This document shows, one piece after another, positions 8,068 through 21,683 of a stretch of DNA of 64,000 nt. The notes under the pieces are model-generated. The model ran no database searches and had not been told where the DNA came from. It saw only the letters and a list, made by a program, of their open reading frames with translations. Positions within the stretch are counted from its first letter, which is position 1; each line of letters begins with the position of its first letter. Both the position numbers and the translations under genes were made by a program. The DNA is from a virus. Location of the stretch: the IMG/VR virus record IMGVR_UViG_3300021375_000011, positions 32,001 through 96,000 of that record. One strand, given 5' to 3'.

Positions 8068-8763
8068 TTAACCTAGTGAAGCATTCTCAATTTGTACTAG
8101 ATCACGTGTGTTTGGTGATGCAGATGAACCTGATCCACCAATAACAACTGTGTCATCTAGTTGATTAAAAAAGTTTAACAACACTACACCACCTGAAAAA
8201 GATATCCCGTGTTTGTTACTAAAACGCTTTAGACGAACTGCTGATGATCCAATATCAGTATATGACACTGTCATATCACCTACTGCAAGAGCTGAATCGT
8301 TAACATTTGCTAATGTGCATATTCCACATTCAGCAACAGTTCCTGATGAACCAGCAGCCGAAGCAGCTTCTACAGTAAAAATAGCTCCGTTTGAGACAAA
8401 TCCGTCTCCGGGCATTCCCATCGCATTCCAATCAGTATCACCAACTGACACAATTCTTACTATGCTACCAACTACTGCGTTTGCAGGGTCAATTGCACTT
8501 GCGTCTAGTCTTGACACAAGATACTTTGACGCACCTTTTTGTCTTACTATAAAACCGTCACCTTCAGCAGTAATACTTCCGCCACCTGGTCTAATTCTTG
8601 TTGTTGTTACTGGAAAGTCATAGTCACTTGTACTAATGTTTCCACCAACTACACCATAGAACAATTCTCCTGCTGGAGTTGGCGTCATTCCAATTAACGG
8701 TCCTGGATTGTTAAATCCAGCATCCTGTGTATCGGATATTTTTATTTTTAACGGTCTTCCCAT
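8068..8763 (-). CDS. conserved virion (head-associated?) protein
   Basis: 231 aa MGRPLKIK...FIVRQKGASKYLV; strong AAGGAG RBS; TATAAATA at 8839-8846; close to the capsid gene. Confidence 0.6.
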   Translation of the reverse strand: MGRPLKIKISDTQDAGFNNPGPLIGMTPTPAGELFYGVVGGNISTSDYDFPVTTTRIRPGGGSITAEGDGFIVRQKGASKYLVSRLDASAIDPANAVVGSIVRIVSVGDTDWNAMGMPGDGFVSNGAIFTVEAASAAGSSGTVAECGICTLANVNDSALAVGDMTVSYTDIGSSAVRLKRFSNKHGISFSGGVVLLNFFNQLDDTVVIGGSGSSASPNTRDLVQIENASLG

Positions 8764-8784
8764 TTGTTTTCTCCTTATAAAGTT

Positions 8785-8833
8785 CCCGTTCTAGCGGGTA
8801 CGCAGTTGTGTCTGCATAAACACATTATTGTGC
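8785..8833 (-). promoter_or_regulatory. structured 5' UTR with three tandem hairpins
   Basis: GCACA-AUAA-UGUGU, UAUGCAG-ACACAA-CUGCGUA and CCCG-CUAGAA-CGGG lie between TATAAATA and the RBS. Confidence 0.5.
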
Positions 8834-9496
8834 AACTGTATTTATAGGATCAAACGTTTTACGCCAGTCTGTACCACGTATTCGATCGACTTTATCAAAT
8901 TGTTCAAGAGTTGTACCTGCATAGTTATAAGATATGTAATGGTCTTCTGGAAGTGTTACCTTTGCCCAGTCCACTACATGTTTATGTGTATGTCTGTTTA
9001 GATGTGATATTGTAATGTTAACTGCAAAGTCTACACTTTCAGGCGCATTTTGCACAATCCATTTTACATTACTATCAACTTTAGTCCATTTTGCTGGCCA
9101 ACGAAGATATTCAAAGTGTTCTCCAACTCCGTCAATGCTGAAACAGATGGATATACGTTTATAATACGAACATGTATTTAGAAACTCTAAACTTGGTTTC
9201 ACTGTGCCGTTAAAGTGTATGTGAAATCTCATATCCGTGTTTTTAAATTTTTCTAATACCTCATGTGTCGATTTGTGTAGTATTGGCTCGCCGCCGCCAA
9301 TTATAATGTGTTTGAGACCGGTAAAGTCTAAATCATCAACTGTTTGATTAAAGGCATACGACTCAACAGGCAATTTTTTTAATGCTTGCCAACGTGTACT
9401 GGCATGTTCGTCGCAAGTTGAACAAGCAAGATTACAAATTTTGCCAGGATCAAATGTTGCACATGTAGGATCTTTTGAGTTTATGTTCAGTATCAT
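8825..9496 (-). CDS. radical SAM protein (short)
   Basis: CNLACSTC (CX3CX2C), GGEP, SIDG...EYLRWPAKW. Confidence 0.85.
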   Translation of the reverse strand: MILNINSKDPTCATFDPGKICNLACSTCDEHASTRWQALKKLPVESYAFNQTVDDLDFTGLKHIIIGGGEPILHKSTHEVLEKFKNTDMRFHIHFNGTVKPSLEFLNTCSYYKRISICFSIDGVGEHFEYLRWPAKWTKVDSNVKWIVQNAPESVDFAVNITISHLNRHTHKHVVDWAKVTLPEDHYISYNYAGTTLEQFDKVDRIRGTDWRKTFDPINTVAQ

Positions 9497-9559: not shown

Positions 9560-10747
9560 TTATGAGAATGATAAGTTGCTAACTGCAATTTCACCCACAT
9601 AGTCACCGGCATTACCAAATGAACTTGCAGTGTTTGATAACTCGATATATCCATATCTAGTCATGAAACTTACTACTGGCTCAAATGTTGACGGATCTAA
9701 TACAACGCCAGAACTCATTAGCGGTACGTATGGACAGTAGAATGCTGGAGCGTCAGTTTCTGATGCACCTTTGTATCCTACTAATACTGCTTGAGCGTCT
9801 GATGCATATGAATCACAGAATACTCTCATTGTACCGTTTAATGTACCTACAAACTTTGTGTTTGTTGGTGCTTCAAAAGTACCTTCTGTTGTTCTAGCAA
9901 ATGCTGAAGTTGTAGCTGATTGTAACACTGTTAATGAAGCTGGTGAAACAACTGCATAGTTACCTGCACCACGTCTTGTACGTTGTGCAATTAAGTTAGC
10001 TGTTCTGTTTATTAACACTGCTAAAGCGGCATGCTCATCACCAACGAAAGTAGCAGTACCTGATACTGCAGCCTGGTTGTATGTGAATTCAGTTGCGGCT
10101 AATGTACGTAGAGATAATAGAATCTCTTGATCGATCTCAGCAGTAATCTCTTGAGCTAATGCTGCCATGATTTCTGCTTCTACATCGATACCGTGCATTG
10201 CTTGTGCATCTTGAGCTGCTTCAAAAGTCCAACGAGCTGACAATTTACGTGTCTTTGCTTCTACAGGTTGCTTTAAGATCTGTACAGAAATTTTGTTACC
10301 TGCTGTACCTTCAAGTACTGCTGTGTTTCCACCACCGTAACCAGTTGCGGTTCCAGCGTTGTTAGAATATGCAGTTGCAATCTTGAATGGTGATAATGCT
10401 TCTTCGCCAGCAGTTGTTGATGTTGCGGCTAGGGAGTTATCAGTCATTGAGTCTGCATAACGTACTCTAAGTGTGTGAATTTGACCAACTGGTCCAGTCA
10501 TAGGCTGAACACCAACTAATTCGTTAGCAATAACAGTAGGCATAACCCTTCTTATTACAGGTAAAATAACTCTGTTTAGAGTTGCAATGTTACCTGATGC
10601 AGTTGATCCCGCTGTTGCGTTCTCAGCTAAGTGTTTGCGAGTGTTTTCTAAGATAACACCCATTGTTGAGCGACGAGCACCTTGTAATCCTTCTAGGAGG
10701 GCTTCTTTGGTCTCACCCCAACGGCTTTCTAGTAGTTCTTGTGACAT
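9560..10747 (-). CDS. gp23: major capsid protein (T4 gp23-like)
   Basis: GVQPMTGP, VEAKTRKLSARWT.E..QD, FYCPYVPL, FMTRYG motifs. Confidence 0.95.
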   Translation of the reverse strand: MSQELLESRWGETKEALLEGLQGARRSTMGVILENTRKHLAENATAGSTASGNIATLNRVILPVIRRVMPTVIANELVGVQPMTGPVGQIHTLRVRYADSMTDNSLAATSTTAGEEALSPFKIATAYSNNAGTATGYGGGNTAVLEGTAGNKISVQILKQPVEAKTRKLSARWTFEAAQDAQAMHGIDVEAEIMAALAQEITAEIDQEILLSLRTLAATEFTYNQAAVSGTATFVGDEHAALAVLINRTANLIAQRTRRGAGNYAVVSPASLTVLQSATTSAFARTTEGTFEAPTNTKFVGTLNGTMRVFCDSYASDAQAVLVGYKGASETDAPAFYCPYVPLMSSGVVLDPSTFEPVVSFMTRYGYIELSNTASSFGNAGDYVGEIAVSNLSFS

Positions 10748-13421: not shown

Positions 13422-13535
13422 GTGAAAATTTTCCTTCTAAGTATTGGGCTCAGTATAGTACTTACAAGAAAGTTAAAAAACTAGTAGTTTATAGGGGTAA
13501 AATGGGTATAAAATGAAACTTTAATAAAGATAAGC

Positions 13536-13757
13536 CTACAATTGCGGAGGAGGTGGAGCAAACTGTGCTTGTATCTTTTTAAGTTCTTCAGTTTTTTCAT
13601 AGTTACGCATATCATACATCTTACGCAACTTTGATATTTGCTTTAGCGTAAGTTTAGTCTTGCGTAGCTCTCCAAGCTCGGGAACACTGTTGTCAGCTTC
13701 TTGGTCTTGGTAATCTTCGTCTGATTGATCGTGATCATAAAATTCAAATAGTTTCAT
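13536..13757 (-). CDS. small head-module protein
   Basis: 73 aa, RKTKLTLKQI.KLR; TATAAATA at 13763-13770, 5 nt before the ATG. Confidence 0.6.
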   Translation of the reverse strand: MKLFEFYDHDQSDEDYQDQEADNSVPELGELRKTKLTLKQISKLRKMYDMRNYEKTEELKKIQAQFAPPPPQL

Positions 13758-13765
13758 AATAGTAT

Positions 13766-19843: not shown

Positions 19844-20160
19844 TGAACGTTTACACAGTTTATGCCGATGTAAAAGAAGGTATAGATGCACGAACTTTTG
19901 TTGCTAACATGAAGCTTTTCCTAGATAAATTACCCACTATGCATGCCTACAGAATCACAAGAATGAAGCTAGGATTCCGTTCAATGGACTTGCCAGAGTT
20001 TAGAATTGATATGGAATTTGAAACCATGCAGGCACTGGATGATGCTATGAGTCATGTGGTAGCAAACGTAGATGATATTGAAACAGAACACGTAGGTTTC
20101 AATCAATGGGTAGATGTAGAAACCATACAACACTTTCTCTACAGAGACTATCCAGACTAA
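19843..20160 (+). CDS. DUF6614-like dimeric alpha/beta barrel protein
   Basis: 105 aa; YRITRMKLG...EF.IDMEF..MQALD.A...LYRDYPD; TAATG overlap with the previous gene. Confidence 0.55.
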   Translation: MNVYTVYADVKEGIDARTFVANMKLFLDKLPTMHAYRITRMKLGFRSMDLPEFRIDMEFETMQALDDAMSHVVANVDDIETEHVGFNQWVDVETIQHFLYRDYPD

Positions 20161-20756
20161 CACCAGCCATTAGAATAATCTTCTAACATAACCTGCCGTA
20201 TACGCAGTCGTTGTAGATCAGTGGGTCCTGCTCGCATGGTGTTGTCACGGCGATGATGTGTGTCCAATGCTGGCACACCAAGTATTCCTGCTATCTTATG
20301 TACATGTTTATAATTGTAGATATGTGTGTAGACAGCTCTGTTGGAACCAAGTCGTGCAGTGTTTGTTTCGCAGTGATCTGCTACGTTTGGATTTTGTCGA
20401 TACACTGCAATGTCTTTGAGAAAGTTGGTTAGACTAGGTGATTTAATCCACAAATTTTTATTTGCCGGATTGCTCATGGTATGATAGAAACCACTTACAA
20501 ACTTATCAATAGGATCACGCCACAGTGCTATGCGTATGTCTGCGTCTAGAAGCTCTGACTCAAACTCCTCAAATGATCTAGCCTTATTGTACACACCAGG
20601 TGCTTCGTTTTGAAAGTTTTGATAGAACTGTTCTTCTTTAGGATCAGCATTCCATAATGCTTGTGCTACATAACTCAACATAGTCGTAGTACTACATTTA
20701 TGATTACGCACTATTGCTATAGTTCTATTATTGTGCTTAAACTTTATCAATCCCAT
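20157..20756 (-). CDS. sulfotransferase family 2-like protein
   Basis: HKCSTTT (5'-PSB-like) and RDPIDKFVSGF (3'-PB-like); likely start ATG 20756, 5 nt after TAAATA at 20762-20767. Confidence 0.7.
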   Translation of the reverse strand: MGLIKFKHNNRTIAIVRNHKCSTTTMLSYVAQALWNADPKEEQFYQNFQNEAPGVYNKARSFEEFESELLDADIRIALWRDPIDKFVSGFYHTMSNPANKNLWIKSPSLTNFLKDIAVYRQNPNVADHCETNTARLGSNRAVYTHIYNYKHVHKIAGILGVPALDTHHRRDNTMRAGPTDLQRLRIRQVMLEDYSNGWC

Positions 20757-20770
20757 ATGCTTATTTAATA

Positions 20771-21260
20771 AGATGTCTAAAGACATCTATTGCTTCGCTT
20801 TGCTTCAGCAATATTTTTATTACGAGTGTAACGAAGTAATCAGTTATCATCTAGATAGTTTAGTCATACTTGCCCTACTACGGGCAAGTGAACTGAAAAG
20901 ATGTCATCATCTGAGTTATCCAGTCATTTGAATAAAGAGATTTACATTACTGTATCAGGGGCGGTTGTGCTGTACCCCTTACTCTAGCCTTGTCTCACAA
21001 CGGAGCGTTTGGTATACCCCTTCAAACAAAGTATACAAACGTATGGGTTGTATCTGTTTCACAGAGCCCATGTCATTCTAGCCTTAAGTTAGCCTTATCC
21101 TTTGACGCACCAGTTCTGTCGGCTACAACTCGCGTTGGCAGACCTCAAGGTGGATCGAGGTTCCTCGATCAAACGATGTCATATTAGCTTGGGAAATTTA
21201 AAAAGTTGCTCTGAGCATTGCTCTAGTAGTGCCTGTGTCATACTTGTTTATGACAATATA
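20771..21260 (-). ncRNA. candidate large structured ncRNA or replication-origin element
   Basis: by far the longest intergenic gap; 9 or more hairpins; GNRA loops (GCGA, GUAA) on the - strand; internal direct repeats. Confidence 0.55.
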
Positions 21261-21275
21261 ATCTGGGGGTTTAAT

Positions 21276-21683
21276 TTACTCTTTTAATATGCCTTTTTGG
21301 TGTACACGGACCCGTATGTGCCCATTATACCATTGTTTTGATTCTAGTACTTTGTGTGTGAATTGTTCTCTTGCTTCAATGTAACTGAGTTCACTTTTAC
21401 TGCTACACCAAAACATGATTTCACGTTTAAACTTGTCTTTTCCTAATAGTTCCACATCTGCAGTAAGTTCATCACTACTTCCATAATAGTCTCGCCAATC
21501 GCTTTCAACTGTATACCTACGTTTGTTTGTTCTTCCCTTCAGAGGCTTCTTACTGCGTTTAAACTGAGTAAGTTTCTTGCCAATGTACTTTCTATCATTG
21601 GTAGTATTTGTTATCAAATATACAAACCCTATGAACTCTGCAGGAATTTCAGTTACTTCTTTATTTTTGTATAGCCATGTCAT
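21276..21683 (-). CDS. denA: stand-alone GIY-YIG endonuclease (T4 EndoII/DenA-like)
   Basis: 135 aa; GFVYLITN...YIGKK, Y.GSS, E..EQF, YNG. Confidence 0.75.
   Translation of the reverse strand: MTWLYKNKEVTEIPAEFIGFVYLITNTTNDRKYIGKKLTQFKRSKKPLKGRTNKRRYTVESDWRDYYGSSDELTADVELLGKDKFKREIMFWCSSKSELSYIEAREQFTHKVLESKQWYNGHIRVRVHQKGILKE

What the first reader, a model, noticed from the sequence alone, without database searches (positions are those of the whole stretch)
20771..21275. ~490-nt hairpin-dense non-coding element directly downstream of a stand-alone GIY-YIG nuclease
Seen: this is the only large gap in a tightly packed genome, and it is full of stems: 21236-21255 (TGTCATA/TATGACA), 21153-21170 (GATCGAGG/CCTCGATC), 21126-21137 (- strand CAAC-GCGA-GTTG), 21043-21071 (GGGCTCTGT-GAA-ACAGATACAACCC), 21006-21041, 20957-20979 (AGGGGTACAGCACAACCGCCCCT), 20943-20954 (TACA-GTAA-TGTA), 20868-20889 (ACTTGCCC/GGGCAAGT) and 20771-20788 (AGATGTCT/AGACATCT). 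Two GNRA tetraloops occur on the - strand, the nuclease strand, though some G-U pairings favour the + strand. AAGGCTA occurs three times and TGACT..AGATGAT twice. Inference: a large folded RNA co-transcribed with the nuclease, acting as a nuclease partner, a ribozyme-like RNA, or a replication primer RNA in the manner of ColE1 RNA II. It may be related to ARRPOF-type replication-associated RNAs; this is unverified.
Basis: partly seen in the sequence, partly recalled or inferred. Interest (0 to 1): 0.85.

Follow-up and report, generated by a model that had tools for sequence, protein, structure and literature searches.

The report
Twin-box knotted RNA of jumbo phages
The gene-free stretch behind a small nuclease gene of this uncultured marine giant phage encodes a real, roughly 500-base folded RNA from a widespread family that no catalogue lists and whose job is still unknown.

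Summary
It is a non-coding RNA gene on the minus strand, about 505 nt long. No Rfam 15 family matches it, including ARRPOF, group I/II introns, GOLLD, ROOL, HEARO, RNase P and Polynucleobacter-1. No tRNA or tmRNA was found.

Relatives keep the gap better than the flanking genes: 82-98% against 76-94% identity. Covariance models found the central domain in 105 fetched uncultured-phage loci (many duplicates), in cultured Agrobacterium phage Atu_ph07, and weakly in E. coli phage 121Q.

- Helices covary.
- A 5-bp loop-loop kiss covaries: 88 of 95 cells pair, against 73.2±2.5 when shuffled.
- Two 7-nt boxes are identical within each RNA but differ between lineages: 53 of 65 RNAs, 11 variants.

The nuclease link looks like conserved gene order. 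Atu_ph07 and several loci carry the RNA without the nuclease, and Melnitz carries the nuclease without the RNA.

Function is unknown. My best guess is a trans-acting scaffold whose twin boxes are read by a two-site partner. Earlier follow-ups in this scan found the same family on other DNA.

The parts
20771..21275 (-). Whole RNA gene, about 505 nt. The 5' end is approximate; the 3' end is set at the terminal hairpin.
   Evidence: Conserved block in 10 aligned relatives and 40 unique relatives. In 6 relatives a TTGACA-17-TAnTAT promoter lies about 35-40 nt before the first hairpin. Conservation ends right after the terminal hairpin, where indels begin.
21237..21254 (-). Hairpin H1 (GUCAUA/UAUGAC), 5' leader of the window's subfamily
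   Evidence: Relatives carry the variant CGCAUA..UAUGCA. Seen by eye, not formally counted.
21072..21187 (-). 5' domain: hairpin 21153-21170; closing helix CACC/GGUG; inner helix GUC/GAC; GNRA-capped hairpin 21126-21137
   Evidence: Model R3 matches 10 of 36 sources, each time directly upstream of the central domain. 98.2% of cells pair. 14 of 18 pairs change on both sides, against 7.8±1.5 when shuffled (0 of 500) and at most 4 when slid. Other subfamilies carry a different 5' domain.
20923..21081 (-). Central domain, the universal core: AAUGA, helix H7 (21043-21071), H8 (21006-21041), H9 (20988-21003), and a three-way junction closed by AGAG (20982-20985) with CUCU (20936-20939) that holds H10 (20958-20978) and H11 (20943-20954)
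   Evidence: Models R1 and R2. Covariation counts.
20996..21001 (-). Kissing-loop strand K1 (GUUGUG, in the H9 loop)
   Evidence: It pairs with K2. Among 19 distinct K1/K2 combinations, 88 of 95 cells are canonical, against 73.2±2.5 when shuffled (0 of 5000). Shifting the register gives 8-51 of 110, against 102 of 110 in register.
20964..20969 (-). Kissing-loop strand K2 (CACAAC, in the 13-nt loop of H10)
   Evidence: The loop is invariant in the window's subfamily and varies together with K1 in other subfamilies.
20906..20912 (-). Twin box X, copy 1 (AGAUGAU, preceded by CUC)
   Evidence: Identical to copy 2 in 53 of 65 unique RNAs, with 11 variants across lineages.
20868..20889 (-). Hairpin HC (ACUUGCCC/GGGCAAGU) between the two boxes
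   Evidence: I counted 12 different stem sequences in relatives, all of which can still pair (rows printed; read by eye because the MAFFT register was off).
20846..20852 (-). Twin box X, copy 2 (AGAUGAU, preceded by UCU)
20819..20840 (-). Lineage-specific hairpin (AUUAC..GUAAU)
   Evidence: Present only in part of the window's subfamily and deleted in others.
20789..20812 (-). Tail hairpin: a stem (UUGCU/AGCAA), then GA..GA flanking a 2-bp mini-stem with a small loop
   Evidence: The stem covaries (UUGCU/AGCAA, UUACU/AGUAA). The mini-stem covaries (GC/GC, AC/GU, GU/AC). GA..GA is invariant. Seen by eye.
20771..20788 (-). Terminal hairpin (AGAUGUCU-UU-AGACAUCU), the likely 3' end or weak terminator
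   Evidence: Invariant in the window's subfamily. Other subfamilies replace it with different perfect hairpins at the same place. It is unique in the window. The scan for classical terminators found none.
21276..21683 (-). Upstream neighbour: 135-aa GIY-YIG nuclease, catalytic domain only
   Evidence: Pfam SegE_GIY-YIG 2e-36; phrog_447; 764 phage records hold a homologue.
20157..20756 (-). Downstream neighbour: ORF of no known family. The true start is probably the second ATG, at 20756.
   Evidence: No Pfam or PHROG hit. The first 10 codons of the 209-aa ORF overlap the conserved terminal hairpin and a stretch with indels in relatives.

Best explanation
Shown here. Window 20771-21275, minus strand, is the gene for a non-coding RNA of about 505 nt. 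It belongs to a family not in Rfam 15, carried in one copy by uncultured aquatic giant (jumbo) T4-related phages and by cultured Agrobacterium phage Atu_ph07. The RNA has:
- a variable 5' domain;
- a universal central domain, a multi-helix junction locked by a 5-bp loop-loop kiss between neighbouring hairpins;
- a 3' domain in which a conserved hairpin is flanked by two copies of one 7-nt box (AGAUGAU here);
- a tail with a GA/GA hairpin and a terminal hairpin.

Inferred. The RNA is made as the last unit of the minus-strand recombination-gene operon (gp47, gp46, ..., nuclease). This happens by read-through here, and from a sigma-70-like or late-type promoter of its own in some relatives. The compact pseudoknotted fold and the terminal hairpin would protect it. 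It would act in trans as a scaffold or decoy: the rigid core presents the two identical boxes, and possibly the AGGCW repeats, to a partner with two equivalent reading sites. That partner is most likely a dimeric protein that co-evolves with the phage lineage, which would explain why both boxes change together.

My odds: about 0.95 that it is a structured RNA gene; about 0.35-0.4 that the scaffold-with-two-site-reader mechanism is right.
For: Conservation. The gap is 82-98% identical in 13 related loci, where the whole 1.6-kb region is 76-94% identical. About 350 nt are nearly invariant across 10 aligned sequences.

Not coding. 46 of 58 distinct central domains have stops in all six frames, and no frame stays open across the family.

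Family size.
- R1 matched 45 of 45 loci chosen from the 20-mer and protein searches.
- R1 matched 49 of 67 new loci from a degenerate pattern that hit 106 IMG/VR stretches, 80 of them listed.
- R2 matched 11 of the 18 loci that R1 had missed.

Helices.
- Alignment A5: 23 of 37 pairs change on both sides, against 6.8±1.7 when shuffled (0 of 500) and at most 9 when slid.
- Alignment A6: 88.4% of cells pair, against 66.0% when shuffled. 211 cells change on both sides, against 70.7±6.7 when shuffled (0 of 500) and at most 41 when slid.
- 5' domain: 14 of 18 pairs change on both sides.

Kissing loop. 88 of 95 cells are canonical, with 0 of 5000 shuffles reaching that. The strands were extracted by regular expression, not fitted by a model.

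Twin boxes. The two copies are identical in 53 of 65 unique RNAs, with 11 variants. No complementary 7-mer sits at a consistent place inside the RNA.

Strand.
- GNRA loops cap H5 and H11 on this strand.
- G-U dominates over A-C.
- All flanking upstream genes lie on this strand.
- 6 of 73 distinct upstream regions carry a TTGACA-17-TAnTAT promoter, each ending roughly 200 nt before the central domain.
- 9 of 73 carry TATAAAT, against a background of 0.042 per 330 nt.

Independent gene.
- One copy each in G000, in a 100%-complete 328-kb genome, and in 3 other large contigs.
- Atu_ph07 carries it at a different genomic place, behind a translation-factor gene. It keeps its own kissing pair (GUUGUU/GACAAC) and its own twin box (AUGAAU, twice).

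RNA libraries. Assemblies of 4 metatranscriptome runs from 3 studies contain pieces of the element. One 215-nt contig matches 20771-20985 without a difference. This shows presence only.
Against: - No direct evidence of transcription, strand, ends or abundance. The RNA-library data are contigs and may include carried-over DNA.
- No partner has been identified.
- The twin boxes could be read by RNA or DNA rather than by protein.
- Twelve of 65 RNAs did not show identical boxes under my simple pattern. By eye several of them have other twin words, but I did not count them.
- Alignments A5, A6 and A8 were fitted to the model structure, which leans the pair counts towards it.
- The sequences are related, so the shuffle controls overstate significance.
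- Folding-energy z-scores are modest.
- The inner 3-bp helix inside H7 is not supported: one of its pairs is unpaired in 18 of 28 rows.
- The position at the end of an operon, facing convergent genes, fits a cis role as well as a trans role.
Confidence: 0.55

Rival explanations
1. RNA-only assembly. The K1-K2 kiss, or the twin boxes, act between molecules, so the RNA forms a homo-oligomer such as a ring or cage. ROOL and GOLLD do this, and phi29 pRNA does it through covarying loop-loop pairs (the pRNA point is recalled).
For: The RNA is large, multi-domain and phage-borne, with a covarying loop-loop pair. GOLLD, ROOL and OLE form homo-oligomers (abstract of PMC12286853, listed). One relative (L088) has tRNA genes nearby; I recall that GOLLD and ROOL often do too.
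Against: K1 and K2 sit on adjacent hairpins about 10 nt apart. An intramolecular kiss is therefore the simpler geometry. No tool here tests oligomerisation. tRNA neighbours are absent from the window and appeared in only 1 of 15 diverse loci scanned.
Confidence: 0.12
2. Cis-acting operon end. The structure is a long 3' UTR that stops read-through into the convergent baseplate-hub genes and/or shields the upstream mRNAs from 3' exonucleases.
For: In most relatives it is the last feature on its strand. A convergent T4_baseplate gene follows in 46 of 52 distinct loci that have at least 1.5 kb downstream. It ends in a conserved hairpin. Two relatives have a classical terminator about 20 nt further on.
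Against: - About 500 nt with a covarying kissing loop and co-changing twin boxes is far more than a terminator or protective hairpin needs.
- In the window and its subfamily a gene on the same strand follows it.
- Some relatives give it a promoter of its own.
- In Atu_ph07 it has moved to another operon.
- The scan found no intrinsic terminator here.
Confidence: 0.12
3. Nuclease partner. The RNA supplies target recognition to the small nuclease, which lacks a DNA-binding domain. The twin boxes would act as two identical guides for a repeated or palindromic site.
For: Of 70 distinct loci, a 135-150-aa GIY-YIG gene ends no more than 260 nt upstream in 44, and lies further upstream in 15. In 4 others an unrelated small nuclease (PDDEXK_15, Pfam E 1e-23) takes that exact place. 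The boxes vary between lineages the way guides do.
Against: - Atu_ph07 has the RNA with no nuclease beside it.
- 7 of 70 loci have neither nuclease within 2.6 kb.
- The nuclease family is in 764 phage records. The only one searched whole here, Melnitz, lacks the RNA.
- Gene order from gp46 to the hub is conserved in this clade anyway.
- No complement of the box (ATCATCT on the sense strand) occurs in the 64-kb window. All 20 other AGATGAT copies lie on strands where long ORFs run, which fits Asp-Asp codons (with ORFs).
Confidence: 0.07
4. Ribozyme, for example one that cuts itself out of the polycistronic transcript.
For: A compact pseudoknotted core with invariant unpaired nucleotides (AAUGA, GGCUCU, UAA joints).
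Against: No match to any Rfam ribozyme or intron model. No split host gene: the upstream ORFs abut each other. I could identify no conserved cleavage-site signature.
Confidence: 0.05
5. DNA-level element or primer RNA of a replication origin.
For: AGGCW repeats occur 4 times in the element, against 0.8 expected (9 of 1000 shuffles reach 4). In some relatives they are spaced about 11 nt apart. The element lies next to recombination genes. An earlier first-reader note (e1-6155707) proposed an origin-like d(GCGAAGC) hairpin.
Against: Compensatory changes and G-U pairs point to selection on RNA, not on duplex DNA. GCGAAGC is not conserved: relatives have GUGAAGC, ACGAAGC and ACGAAGU. No AT-rich unwinding region is conserved.
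Confidence: 0.04

Closest known systems
GOLLD (RF01998) and ROOL (RF03087), large ornate RNAs of phages and prophages
   Same: A large (over 400 nt), multi-domain, pseudoknotted RNA carried by phages, with unknown function. It is the same kind of object.
   Different: No sequence or structure match to either Rfam model. The hosts differ: these are aquatic and soil jumbo T4-related phages. The twin co-changing boxes are not, as far as I recall, a described feature of GOLLD or ROOL. Oligomerisation (PMC12286853, abstract) was not tested here.
Polynucleobacter-1 RNA motif (Rfam RF01718; Weinberg et al. 2010, PMC2864571)
   Same: An orphan motif from Burkholderiales and fresh-water or estuary sequence (table row read). 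Several earlier follow-up notes of this scan call the present family its uncatalogued sister.
   Different: The RF01718 model (141 positions, cut-off 37 bits) gives no match at E up to 10 in G000 or Atu_ph07. In 5 large relatives' records it gives only a 7-bit hit elsewhere. It does not appear in any Rfam scan of 50 family or candidate loci. I could not obtain RF01718 member sequences, so a more distant kinship is untested.
phi29 prohead RNA (pRNA)
   Same: A phage-encoded structured RNA whose two loops keep complementarity through covariation while the sequence drifts (recalled).
   Different: pRNA is about 120-174 nt, belongs to small Bacillus podophages, and pairs between molecules to form a ring on the packaging motor (recalled). 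No similarity was detected by Rfam, and here the two loops are on adjacent hairpins.
Guide or scaffold RNAs of small nucleases (omega-RNA and reRNA of IscB/TnpB, known as HEARO)
   Same: A large structured RNA encoded beside a small nuclease gene.
   Different: The nuclease here is GIY-YIG or PD-(D/E)XK, not RuvC/HNH. The RNA also occurs without the nuclease, and the nuclease without the RNA. There is no transposon end, and no single terminal guide segment. There is no HEARO match.

Membership tests
Any Rfam 15 family (4227 models), including ARRPOF, group I and II introns, GOLLD, ROOL, HEARO, RNase P, tmRNA, 6S | Covariance-model score at or above the family's gathering score | tested here: not met
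   Whole window: the only hit is freshwater-2 at 8761-8834. Region 20500-21600 at E up to 10: four chance-level hits of 9.6-19.2 bits, against cut-offs of 44-86.7. The same negative result came from 50 family or candidate loci.
Polynucleobacter-1 (RF01718) | Score of at least 37 bits against the 141-position model | tested here: not met
   No match at E up to 10 in G000 or Atu_ph07. In 5 large relatives' records the only hit is 7 bits (E 9.85) at an unrelated place.
Group I intron with a homing-endonuclease ORF | Intron core (P3-P9) recognised by the Rfam model, and an interrupted host gene with flanking exons | tested here: not met
   No Intron_gpI hit at E up to 10. The nuclease ORF start overlaps the stop of the radical-SAM ORF (21683), so there is no room for a 5' intron half. 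The flanking ORFs are unrelated proteins.
tRNA / tmRNA | ARAGORN detection | tested here: not met
   0 genes in the window.
Box C/D (k-turn) guide RNAs | C (RUGAUGA) and D (CUGA) boxes in a terminal stem context, and a match to a family model | tested here: not met
   The words AGAUGAUGA and UGAC draw only 17.5-20.5-bit hits to snoRNA models, whose cut-offs are 41-47. The box changes to GAAUAAU, AGCGAAA or AACAGAA in relatives, which breaks the C-box consensus (the consensus is recalled).
RNA-guided nuclease systems (omega-RNA type) | Obligate co-occurrence of the RNA and its nuclease | tested here: not met
   The RNA occurs without the nuclease in Atu_ph07 and in 7 of 70 loci. The nuclease occurs without the RNA in Melnitz.
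The uncatalogued 'twin-box knotted RNA' family defined here | Central domain recognised by models R1 and R2 | tested here: met
   Window 20923-21081, minus strand: 202.1 bits with R1 (by construction) and 149.3 bits with R2, which was built without it.
The uncatalogued 'twin-box knotted RNA' family defined here | Complementary K1 and K2 loops | tested here: met
   GUUGUG with CACAAC gives 6 of 6 pairs.
The uncatalogued 'twin-box knotted RNA' family defined here | Two identical 7-nt boxes flanking a conserved hairpin | tested here: met
   AGAUGAU at 20906-20912 and 20846-20852, either side of hairpin 20868-20889.
GOLLD/ROOL-like RNA-only multimers | Homo-oligomeric assembly | not testable with these tools

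The most novel reading that the evidence does not exclude
The twin boxes are a programmable address. The rigid knotted core holds two identical 7-10-nt recognition words at a fixed spacing, so that an effector is directed to a nucleic-acid site that carries the complementary word twice, either as a repeat or on both strands of a palindrome. The effector could be a dimer or the small nuclease that lacks a DNA-binding domain. Each phage lineage would have re-addressed the system by changing both words together. That would make this a new class of RNA-guided machinery in giant phages.
Probability: 0.08. Interest if true: 0.95.

Novelty: categorically new. Interest (0 to 1): 0.8.

Why it matters
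New large structured RNA classes are rare, and past examples (RNase P, tmRNA, OLE, GOLLD, ROOL, raiA) each opened a line of biology. This family matches none of the 4227 Rfam families. My paper searches (text finds) found no description of it.

It is kept in a single copy by many uncultured giant phages of aquatic samples. It shows two unusual signals of function: a covarying kissing loop, and two boxes that always change together.

It also occurs in Agrobacterium phage Atu_ph07, a culturable phage whose host is a well-known laboratory strain, and probably in E. coli phage 121Q. The function is therefore directly testable.

One caution on the 'categorically new' label. It refers to the RNA family, which has no detectable relative, and not to a demonstrated new mechanism. 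Earlier notes of this scan propose a kinship with the orphan motif Polynucleobacter-1. My tests did not find that kinship, but I could not fully exclude it. If it holds, 'new variant of a known kind' would be the fairer label.

Tried and rejected
Protein-coding gene or decayed C-terminal half of the nuclease gene. Rejected:
- There are stops in all six frames in 46 of 58 central domains.
- Indels are not multiples of three.
- Homologues of about 130-150 aa are the norm for this nuclease.

Other rejected readings:
- Group I intron, RNase P, tmRNA, 6S, riboswitches: no Rfam or ARAGORN signal.
- Plus-strand RNA: rejected on GNRA loops, G-U counts and gene context. The plus-strand promoter-like site at 21235-21262 is at chance level, with 3 sites found against 3.7 expected.
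- Antisense regulator of phage mRNAs through the box: no sense-strand complement of the box in the 64-kb window.
- Internal partner for the boxes: none at a consistent place.
- d(GCGAAGC) origin hairpin: not conserved.

Searches that found nothing:
- blastn of the window RNA and of two diverged members against 50,697 phage records.
- tblastn of the 209-aa ORF.
- R1 or R2 in Melnitz, PA5oct and Phosso.

The two bacterial MAG hits to the 20-mer are chance matches inside GC-rich coding sequence.

Read laying used only contigs of RNA libraries. Depth differences between the element and its flanks cannot be used, and parts without cover mean nothing.

A long-range helix closing the central domain (GAAU/AUUC) was proposed by RNAalifold. 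Four relatives have A-C at one of its pairs, so I dropped it. The 3-bp helix inside H7 is not supported.

My MAFFT alignment of the 3' domain was out of register for the HC hairpin, so that hairpin's variants were read by eye.

The supplements of PMC10690425 (over 10,000 candidate viral RNAs from IMG/VR) and of PMC2864571 were closed. This family may be listed there unnamed.

Full report
WHAT IS THERE

The window is part of a 120.8-kb IMG/VR virus record that CheckV rates 35% complete. A close relative is a 328-kb genome rated 100% complete, with terminal repeats. The gp46-like recombination nuclease is 48% identical to those of jumbo phages PA5oct and relatives, 46.8% to Phosso and 40.6% to Atu_ph07. 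The host genome is therefore an uncultured marine giant T4-related phage.

On the minus strand the gene order is gp47-like (Metallophos), a 232-aa ORF, gp46-like, a short-chain dehydrogenase, a radical-SAM enzyme, then a 135-aa GIY-YIG protein. After that come 489 nt without an ORF of 80 aa or more, the largest such stretch in the window, and then a 209-aa ORF of no known family. Plus-strand genes, including the T4-type baseplate hub, converge on this block.

IS IT MORE THAN CHANCE?

Thermodynamics alone says little. The z-scores are -2.3 and -2.6 for the two strands. Comparison with relatives is decisive.

- A protein search with the downstream ORF fetched 16 related IMG/VR loci.
- In 13 of them the gap aligns at 82-98% identity, while the whole 1.6-kb region aligns at 76-94%.
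- In a 10-sequence alignment about 350 nt are nearly invariant. Differences cluster in hairpin loops or come as compensating pairs.
- In some relatives about 0.8 kb of other genes is inserted between the nuclease and the element, or between the element and the 209-aa ORF. The element stays intact.

It is not coding. 46 of 58 distinct central domains have stops in all six frames, and no frame stays open across the family.

HOW LARGE IS THE FAMILY?

- An exact 20-mer from the most conserved hairpin found 18 IMG/VR stretches, 45 metagenome stretches and 2 bacterial MAG stretches. The MAG stretches are chance matches inside GC-rich coding sequence.
- Model R1, a covariance model of the 159-nt central domain built only from the window's subfamily, also recognised three diverged subfamilies at E 1e-27 to 3e-3.
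- A degenerate pattern taken from features shared by all four subfamilies hit 106 IMG/VR stretches, of which 80 were listed.
- R1 confirmed 49 of the 67 new loci.
- Model R2, built from those 49, confirmed 11 of the 18 that R1 missed.
- R2 finds exactly one copy in G000, one in the complete 328-kb genome and one in each of three other large contigs. It finds none in a fifth contig.

No phage isolate matches by blastn. R2, however, finds a member in cultured Agrobacterium phage Atu_ph07 (E 8e-7 over the whole genome). It lies in an unannotated stretch at the end of the record. By eye that copy has the AAAUGA word, helix H7, a K1/K2 pair of its own (GUUGUU with GACAAC), a closing helix CGAGAAU/AUUCUCG, a long central hairpin, its own twin box (AUGAAU after CUC and after UCU) and GA-type tail hairpins.

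There is a weak hit (17.3 bits, E 0.08 genome-wide) inside a 612-nt unannotated gap. It has a perfect K1/K2 pair (GUUGCU with AGCAAC) and a GNRA-capped H11. I rate this member as probable, not certain.

Melnitz, PA5oct and Phosso gave no match.

STRUCTURE

Central domain (window 20923-21081):
- AAUGA;
- helix H7;
- a long, variable hairpin H8;
- a short hairpin H9;
- a three-way junction closed by AGAG with CUCU, holding H10 (GGGG/CCCC with a 13-nt loop) and H11 (usually capped by a GNRA loop).

Pair counts:

| Alignment | Measure | Observed | Shuffled | Slid |
|---|---|---|---|---|
| A5 (30 distinct rows) | pairs changed on both sides, of 37 | 23 | 6.8±1.7 (0 of 500) | at most 9 |
| A6 (28 distinct, more diverse rows) | cells that pair | 88.4% | 66.0% | |
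| A6 | cells changed on both sides | 211 | 70.7±6.7 (0 of 500) | at most 41 |
| A8 (5' domain) | pairs changed on both sides, of 18 | 14 | 7.8±1.5 (0 of 500) | at most 4 |

Two caveats apply. These alignments were fitted to the model structure, and the sequences are related, so the shuffles overstate significance. The slid controls and the many pair types per position carry the argument.

The small inner helix of H7 is not supported.

The kissing loop is an independent test, because both strands were extracted by regular expression rather than by a model. The six bases after CCG or GCG in the H9 loop (K1) pair with loop positions 6-11 of H10 (K2).
- The 58 distinct central domains give 19 distinct K1/K2 combinations.
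- Examples are GUUGUG/CACAAC, GUUGC/GCAAC, GUUGA/UCAAC, GUCAU/AUGAC, GUCAG/CUGAC and GUUUU/AAAAC.
- 88 of 95 cells at positions 1-5 are canonical, against 73.2±2.5 after shuffling (0 of 5000).
- Shifting the register drops pairing from 102 of 110 to between 8 and 51 of 110.

The 5' domain (21072-21187) has four helices. Its model R3 matches 10 of 36 sources, always abutting the central domain, and 98.2% of cells pair. Other subfamilies, and Atu_ph07, have different 5' domains.

The 3' domain holds hairpin HC (20868-20889). I read 12 different stem sequences in relatives, all of which can still pair (by eye).

The tail has a stem that covaries, an invariant GA..GA around a covarying 2-bp mini-stem, and a terminal hairpin. 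In other subfamilies a different perfect hairpin replaces the terminal one (by eye).

THE TWIN BOXES

Just 3' of a CUC before hairpin HC, and 3' of a UCU after it, lie two 7-nt words. They are identical to each other in 53 of 65 unique RNAs and differ between lineages. The 11 variants are AGAUGAU, AGAUGAG, AGAUGAA, GAAUAAU, GGAUGAU, AGAUAAU, AGCGAAA, GGAUAAU, AAAUGAA, AACAGAA and AUAUGAA. Within the window's own subfamily, AGAUGAU and AGAUGAG switch in both copies at once.

The 12 RNAs that my pattern missed belong to the most diverged subfamilies. By eye several of them carry other twin words, such as GGUAAU twice.

No complementary 7-mer sits at a consistent place in the RNA. The 5' flanks of the two units do not visibly change with the box (by eye). 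The complement of the box never occurs on the sense strand in the 64-kb window. AGATGAT itself is over-represented (22 copies against 8.2±2.7 expected), but the other 20 copies all lie on strands where long ORFs run, which fits Asp-Asp codons.

Identical words that change together without an internal partner point to a common external reader with two equivalent sites.

STRAND AND EXPRESSION

The minus strand is supported by several observations.
- GNRA loops (GCGA, GUGA, GCAA, GAAA, GUAA) cap H5 and H11 in many members.
- There are 24 G-U cells against 12 A-C cells.
- One pair of H10 is G-U in 19 of 28 diverse rows.
- All upstream genes lie on this strand.
- In 6 of 73 distinct upstream regions a TTGACA-17-TAnTAT promoter lies directly before the RNA. 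All six belong to loci where other genes separate nuclease and RNA.
- TATAAAT, the T4 late-promoter core (recalled), occurs upstream in 9 of 73 regions, against a background of 0.042 per 330 nt.

The window has neither signal, so here read-through from the nuclease gene is the likely source. This is inference.

The index search listed 24 runs, of which 20 hold at least part of the stretch. All are labelled aquatic, seawater, marine or viral metagenomes except one coded organism, and 6 are RNA libraries. Contigs from 4 RNA runs of 3 studies cover parts of the element, and one of them is identical over 20771-20985. That shows presence in RNA libraries only. It gives no strand, ends or level, and carried-over DNA is not excluded.

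RELATION TO THE NUCLEASE

The 94 loci with a model match collapse to 74 distinct ones (RNA plus 150 nt on each side). Of these, 70 have at least 700 nt upstream.

| Nearest queried family upstream on the same strand | Loci of 70 |
|---|---|
| GIY-YIG gene ending no more than 260 nt before the central domain | 44 |
| GIY-YIG gene further upstream | 15 |
| PD-(D/E)XK nuclease (Pfam PDDEXK_15, E 1e-23) in that place | 4 |
| 375-aa ORF of no Pfam family | 3 |
| None of the queried families within 2.6 kb | 4 |

Downstream, 46 of 52 loci with enough sequence have the convergent baseplate-hub gene.

PA5oct, Atu_ph07 and Phosso share the order sigma factor, gp47, gp46, small genes, convergent hub. Much of the adjacency is therefore inherited gene order. 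Atu_ph07 carries the RNA about 17 kb away from that block, behind a translation-factor gene, with no nuclease beside it. The nuclease family is found in 764 phage records. Its closest cultured member, in Melnitz, has no such RNA.

I therefore read the nuclease as a neighbour, not a proven partner. Two unrelated small nucleases occupy the same slot, which keeps a functional link alive at low odds.

COMPARISON WITH WHAT IS KNOWN

No Rfam 15 family matches the window or any of 50 family or candidate loci, at gathering score or at E up to 10.

My literature searches found no description of the RNA.
- Full-text searches.
- PMC10690425: a term search of the main text for 'jumbo', 'GIY-YIG', 'kissing', 'endonuclease', 'marine' and 'largest' gave no relevant passage.
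- bioRxiv 10.64898/2026.10.21.760802: a term search found none of 'GIY-YIG', 'jumbo', 'kissing', 'baseplate', 'endonuclease' or 'marine'.
- The supplements of PMC10690425 and PMC2864571 could not be read.

In kind, the RNA resembles GOLLD and ROOL. Those are large ornate phage-borne RNAs now known to form RNA-only oligomers (PMC12286853; abstract only, as listed).

EARLIER NOTES OF THIS SCAN

I saw these only after my own analysis. They show that the same family was found and followed up on several other genomes. They describe the twin boxes and the pseudoknot, and they judge the nuclease a neighbour. My results agree with all of that.

Several of those notes call the family a sister of Polynucleobacter-1 (RF01718). 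I tested this with the RF01718 model on G000, Atu_ph07 and five large relatives' records and found nothing: the best hit is 7 bits, at an unrelated place. Membership is therefore not met. I could not test a remoter kinship.

The first-reader note that proposes an origin-like d(GCGAAGC) hairpin at 20792-20798 is contradicted, because the heptamer is not conserved.

VERDICT

This is a genuine, strongly constrained, pseudoknotted non-coding RNA gene of an uncatalogued family. The function is unknown.

My best-supported mechanism is a stable trans-acting scaffold or decoy whose twin boxes are read by a two-site partner, at about 0.35-0.4. It is followed by RNA-only assembly, a cis-acting operon-end element, a nuclease partner, a ribozyme and an origin RNA.

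The culturable carrier Atu_ph07 makes all of these readings testable.

Noticed in passing
window 8761-8834 (-): The only Rfam match in the window: freshwater-2 RNA (RF02980), 56.4 bits against a cut-off of 49.9. It lies between two minus-strand ORFs.
   Followed up: no
window 20757-20786: The 209-aa ORF probably starts at its second ATG (20756). Its first 10 codons overlap the conserved terminal hairpin of the RNA and a stretch that has indels in relatives.
   Followed up: partly
window 13422-13765: The second-largest stretch without an ORF of 80 aa or more (344 nt). I did not examine it.
   Followed up: no
L020:8315-8821 (-), and the same slot in L019, L102, L119: In 4 distinct loci a 168-173-aa PD-(D/E)XK nuclease (Pfam PDDEXK_15, E 1e-23) replaces the GIY-YIG gene directly upstream of the RNA. 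This looks like non-orthologous replacement of a small nuclease in the gp46 recombination block.
   Followed up: partly
Atu_ph07 NC_042013.1 ~489800-490380 (-) = L179:3300-3881: This unannotated end of the record holds a member of the RNA family, including two AGGC words, the twin box AUGAAU and two GA-type tail hairpins. blastn reported a second place in the same record similar to part of this stretch; I did not look at it.
   Followed up: partly
E. coli phage 121Q NC_025447.1 192745-193356 (+) = L182:1169-1780: A 612-nt unannotated gap holds a weak R2 hit (17.3 bits) with a perfect 6-bp K1/K2 pair. It is a probable distant family member.
   Followed up: partly
L088:5475-5648 and 9679-9753: Three tRNA genes lie within about 1.5-2.5 kb of the RNA in one diverged relative. 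There are none in the window.
   Followed up: no
Phosso PV764938.1 229759-230772 = L175:8411-9424: A 1-kb unannotated gap lies beside a Holliday-junction resolvase gene in the syntenic block of this cultured jumbo phage. R2 finds nothing in it.
   Followed up: partly
window, both strands: AGATGAT occurs 22 times against 8.2±2.7 expected. Outside the RNA, all 20 copies lie on strands where long ORFs run, which is probably a codon effect (Asp-Asp).
   Followed up: partly
window 21127-21273, run X15: One RNA-library contig joins 21127 to 21273, skipping 145 nt. It is most likely a relative that lacks the H1/H2 leader, not a processing event.
   Followed up: no
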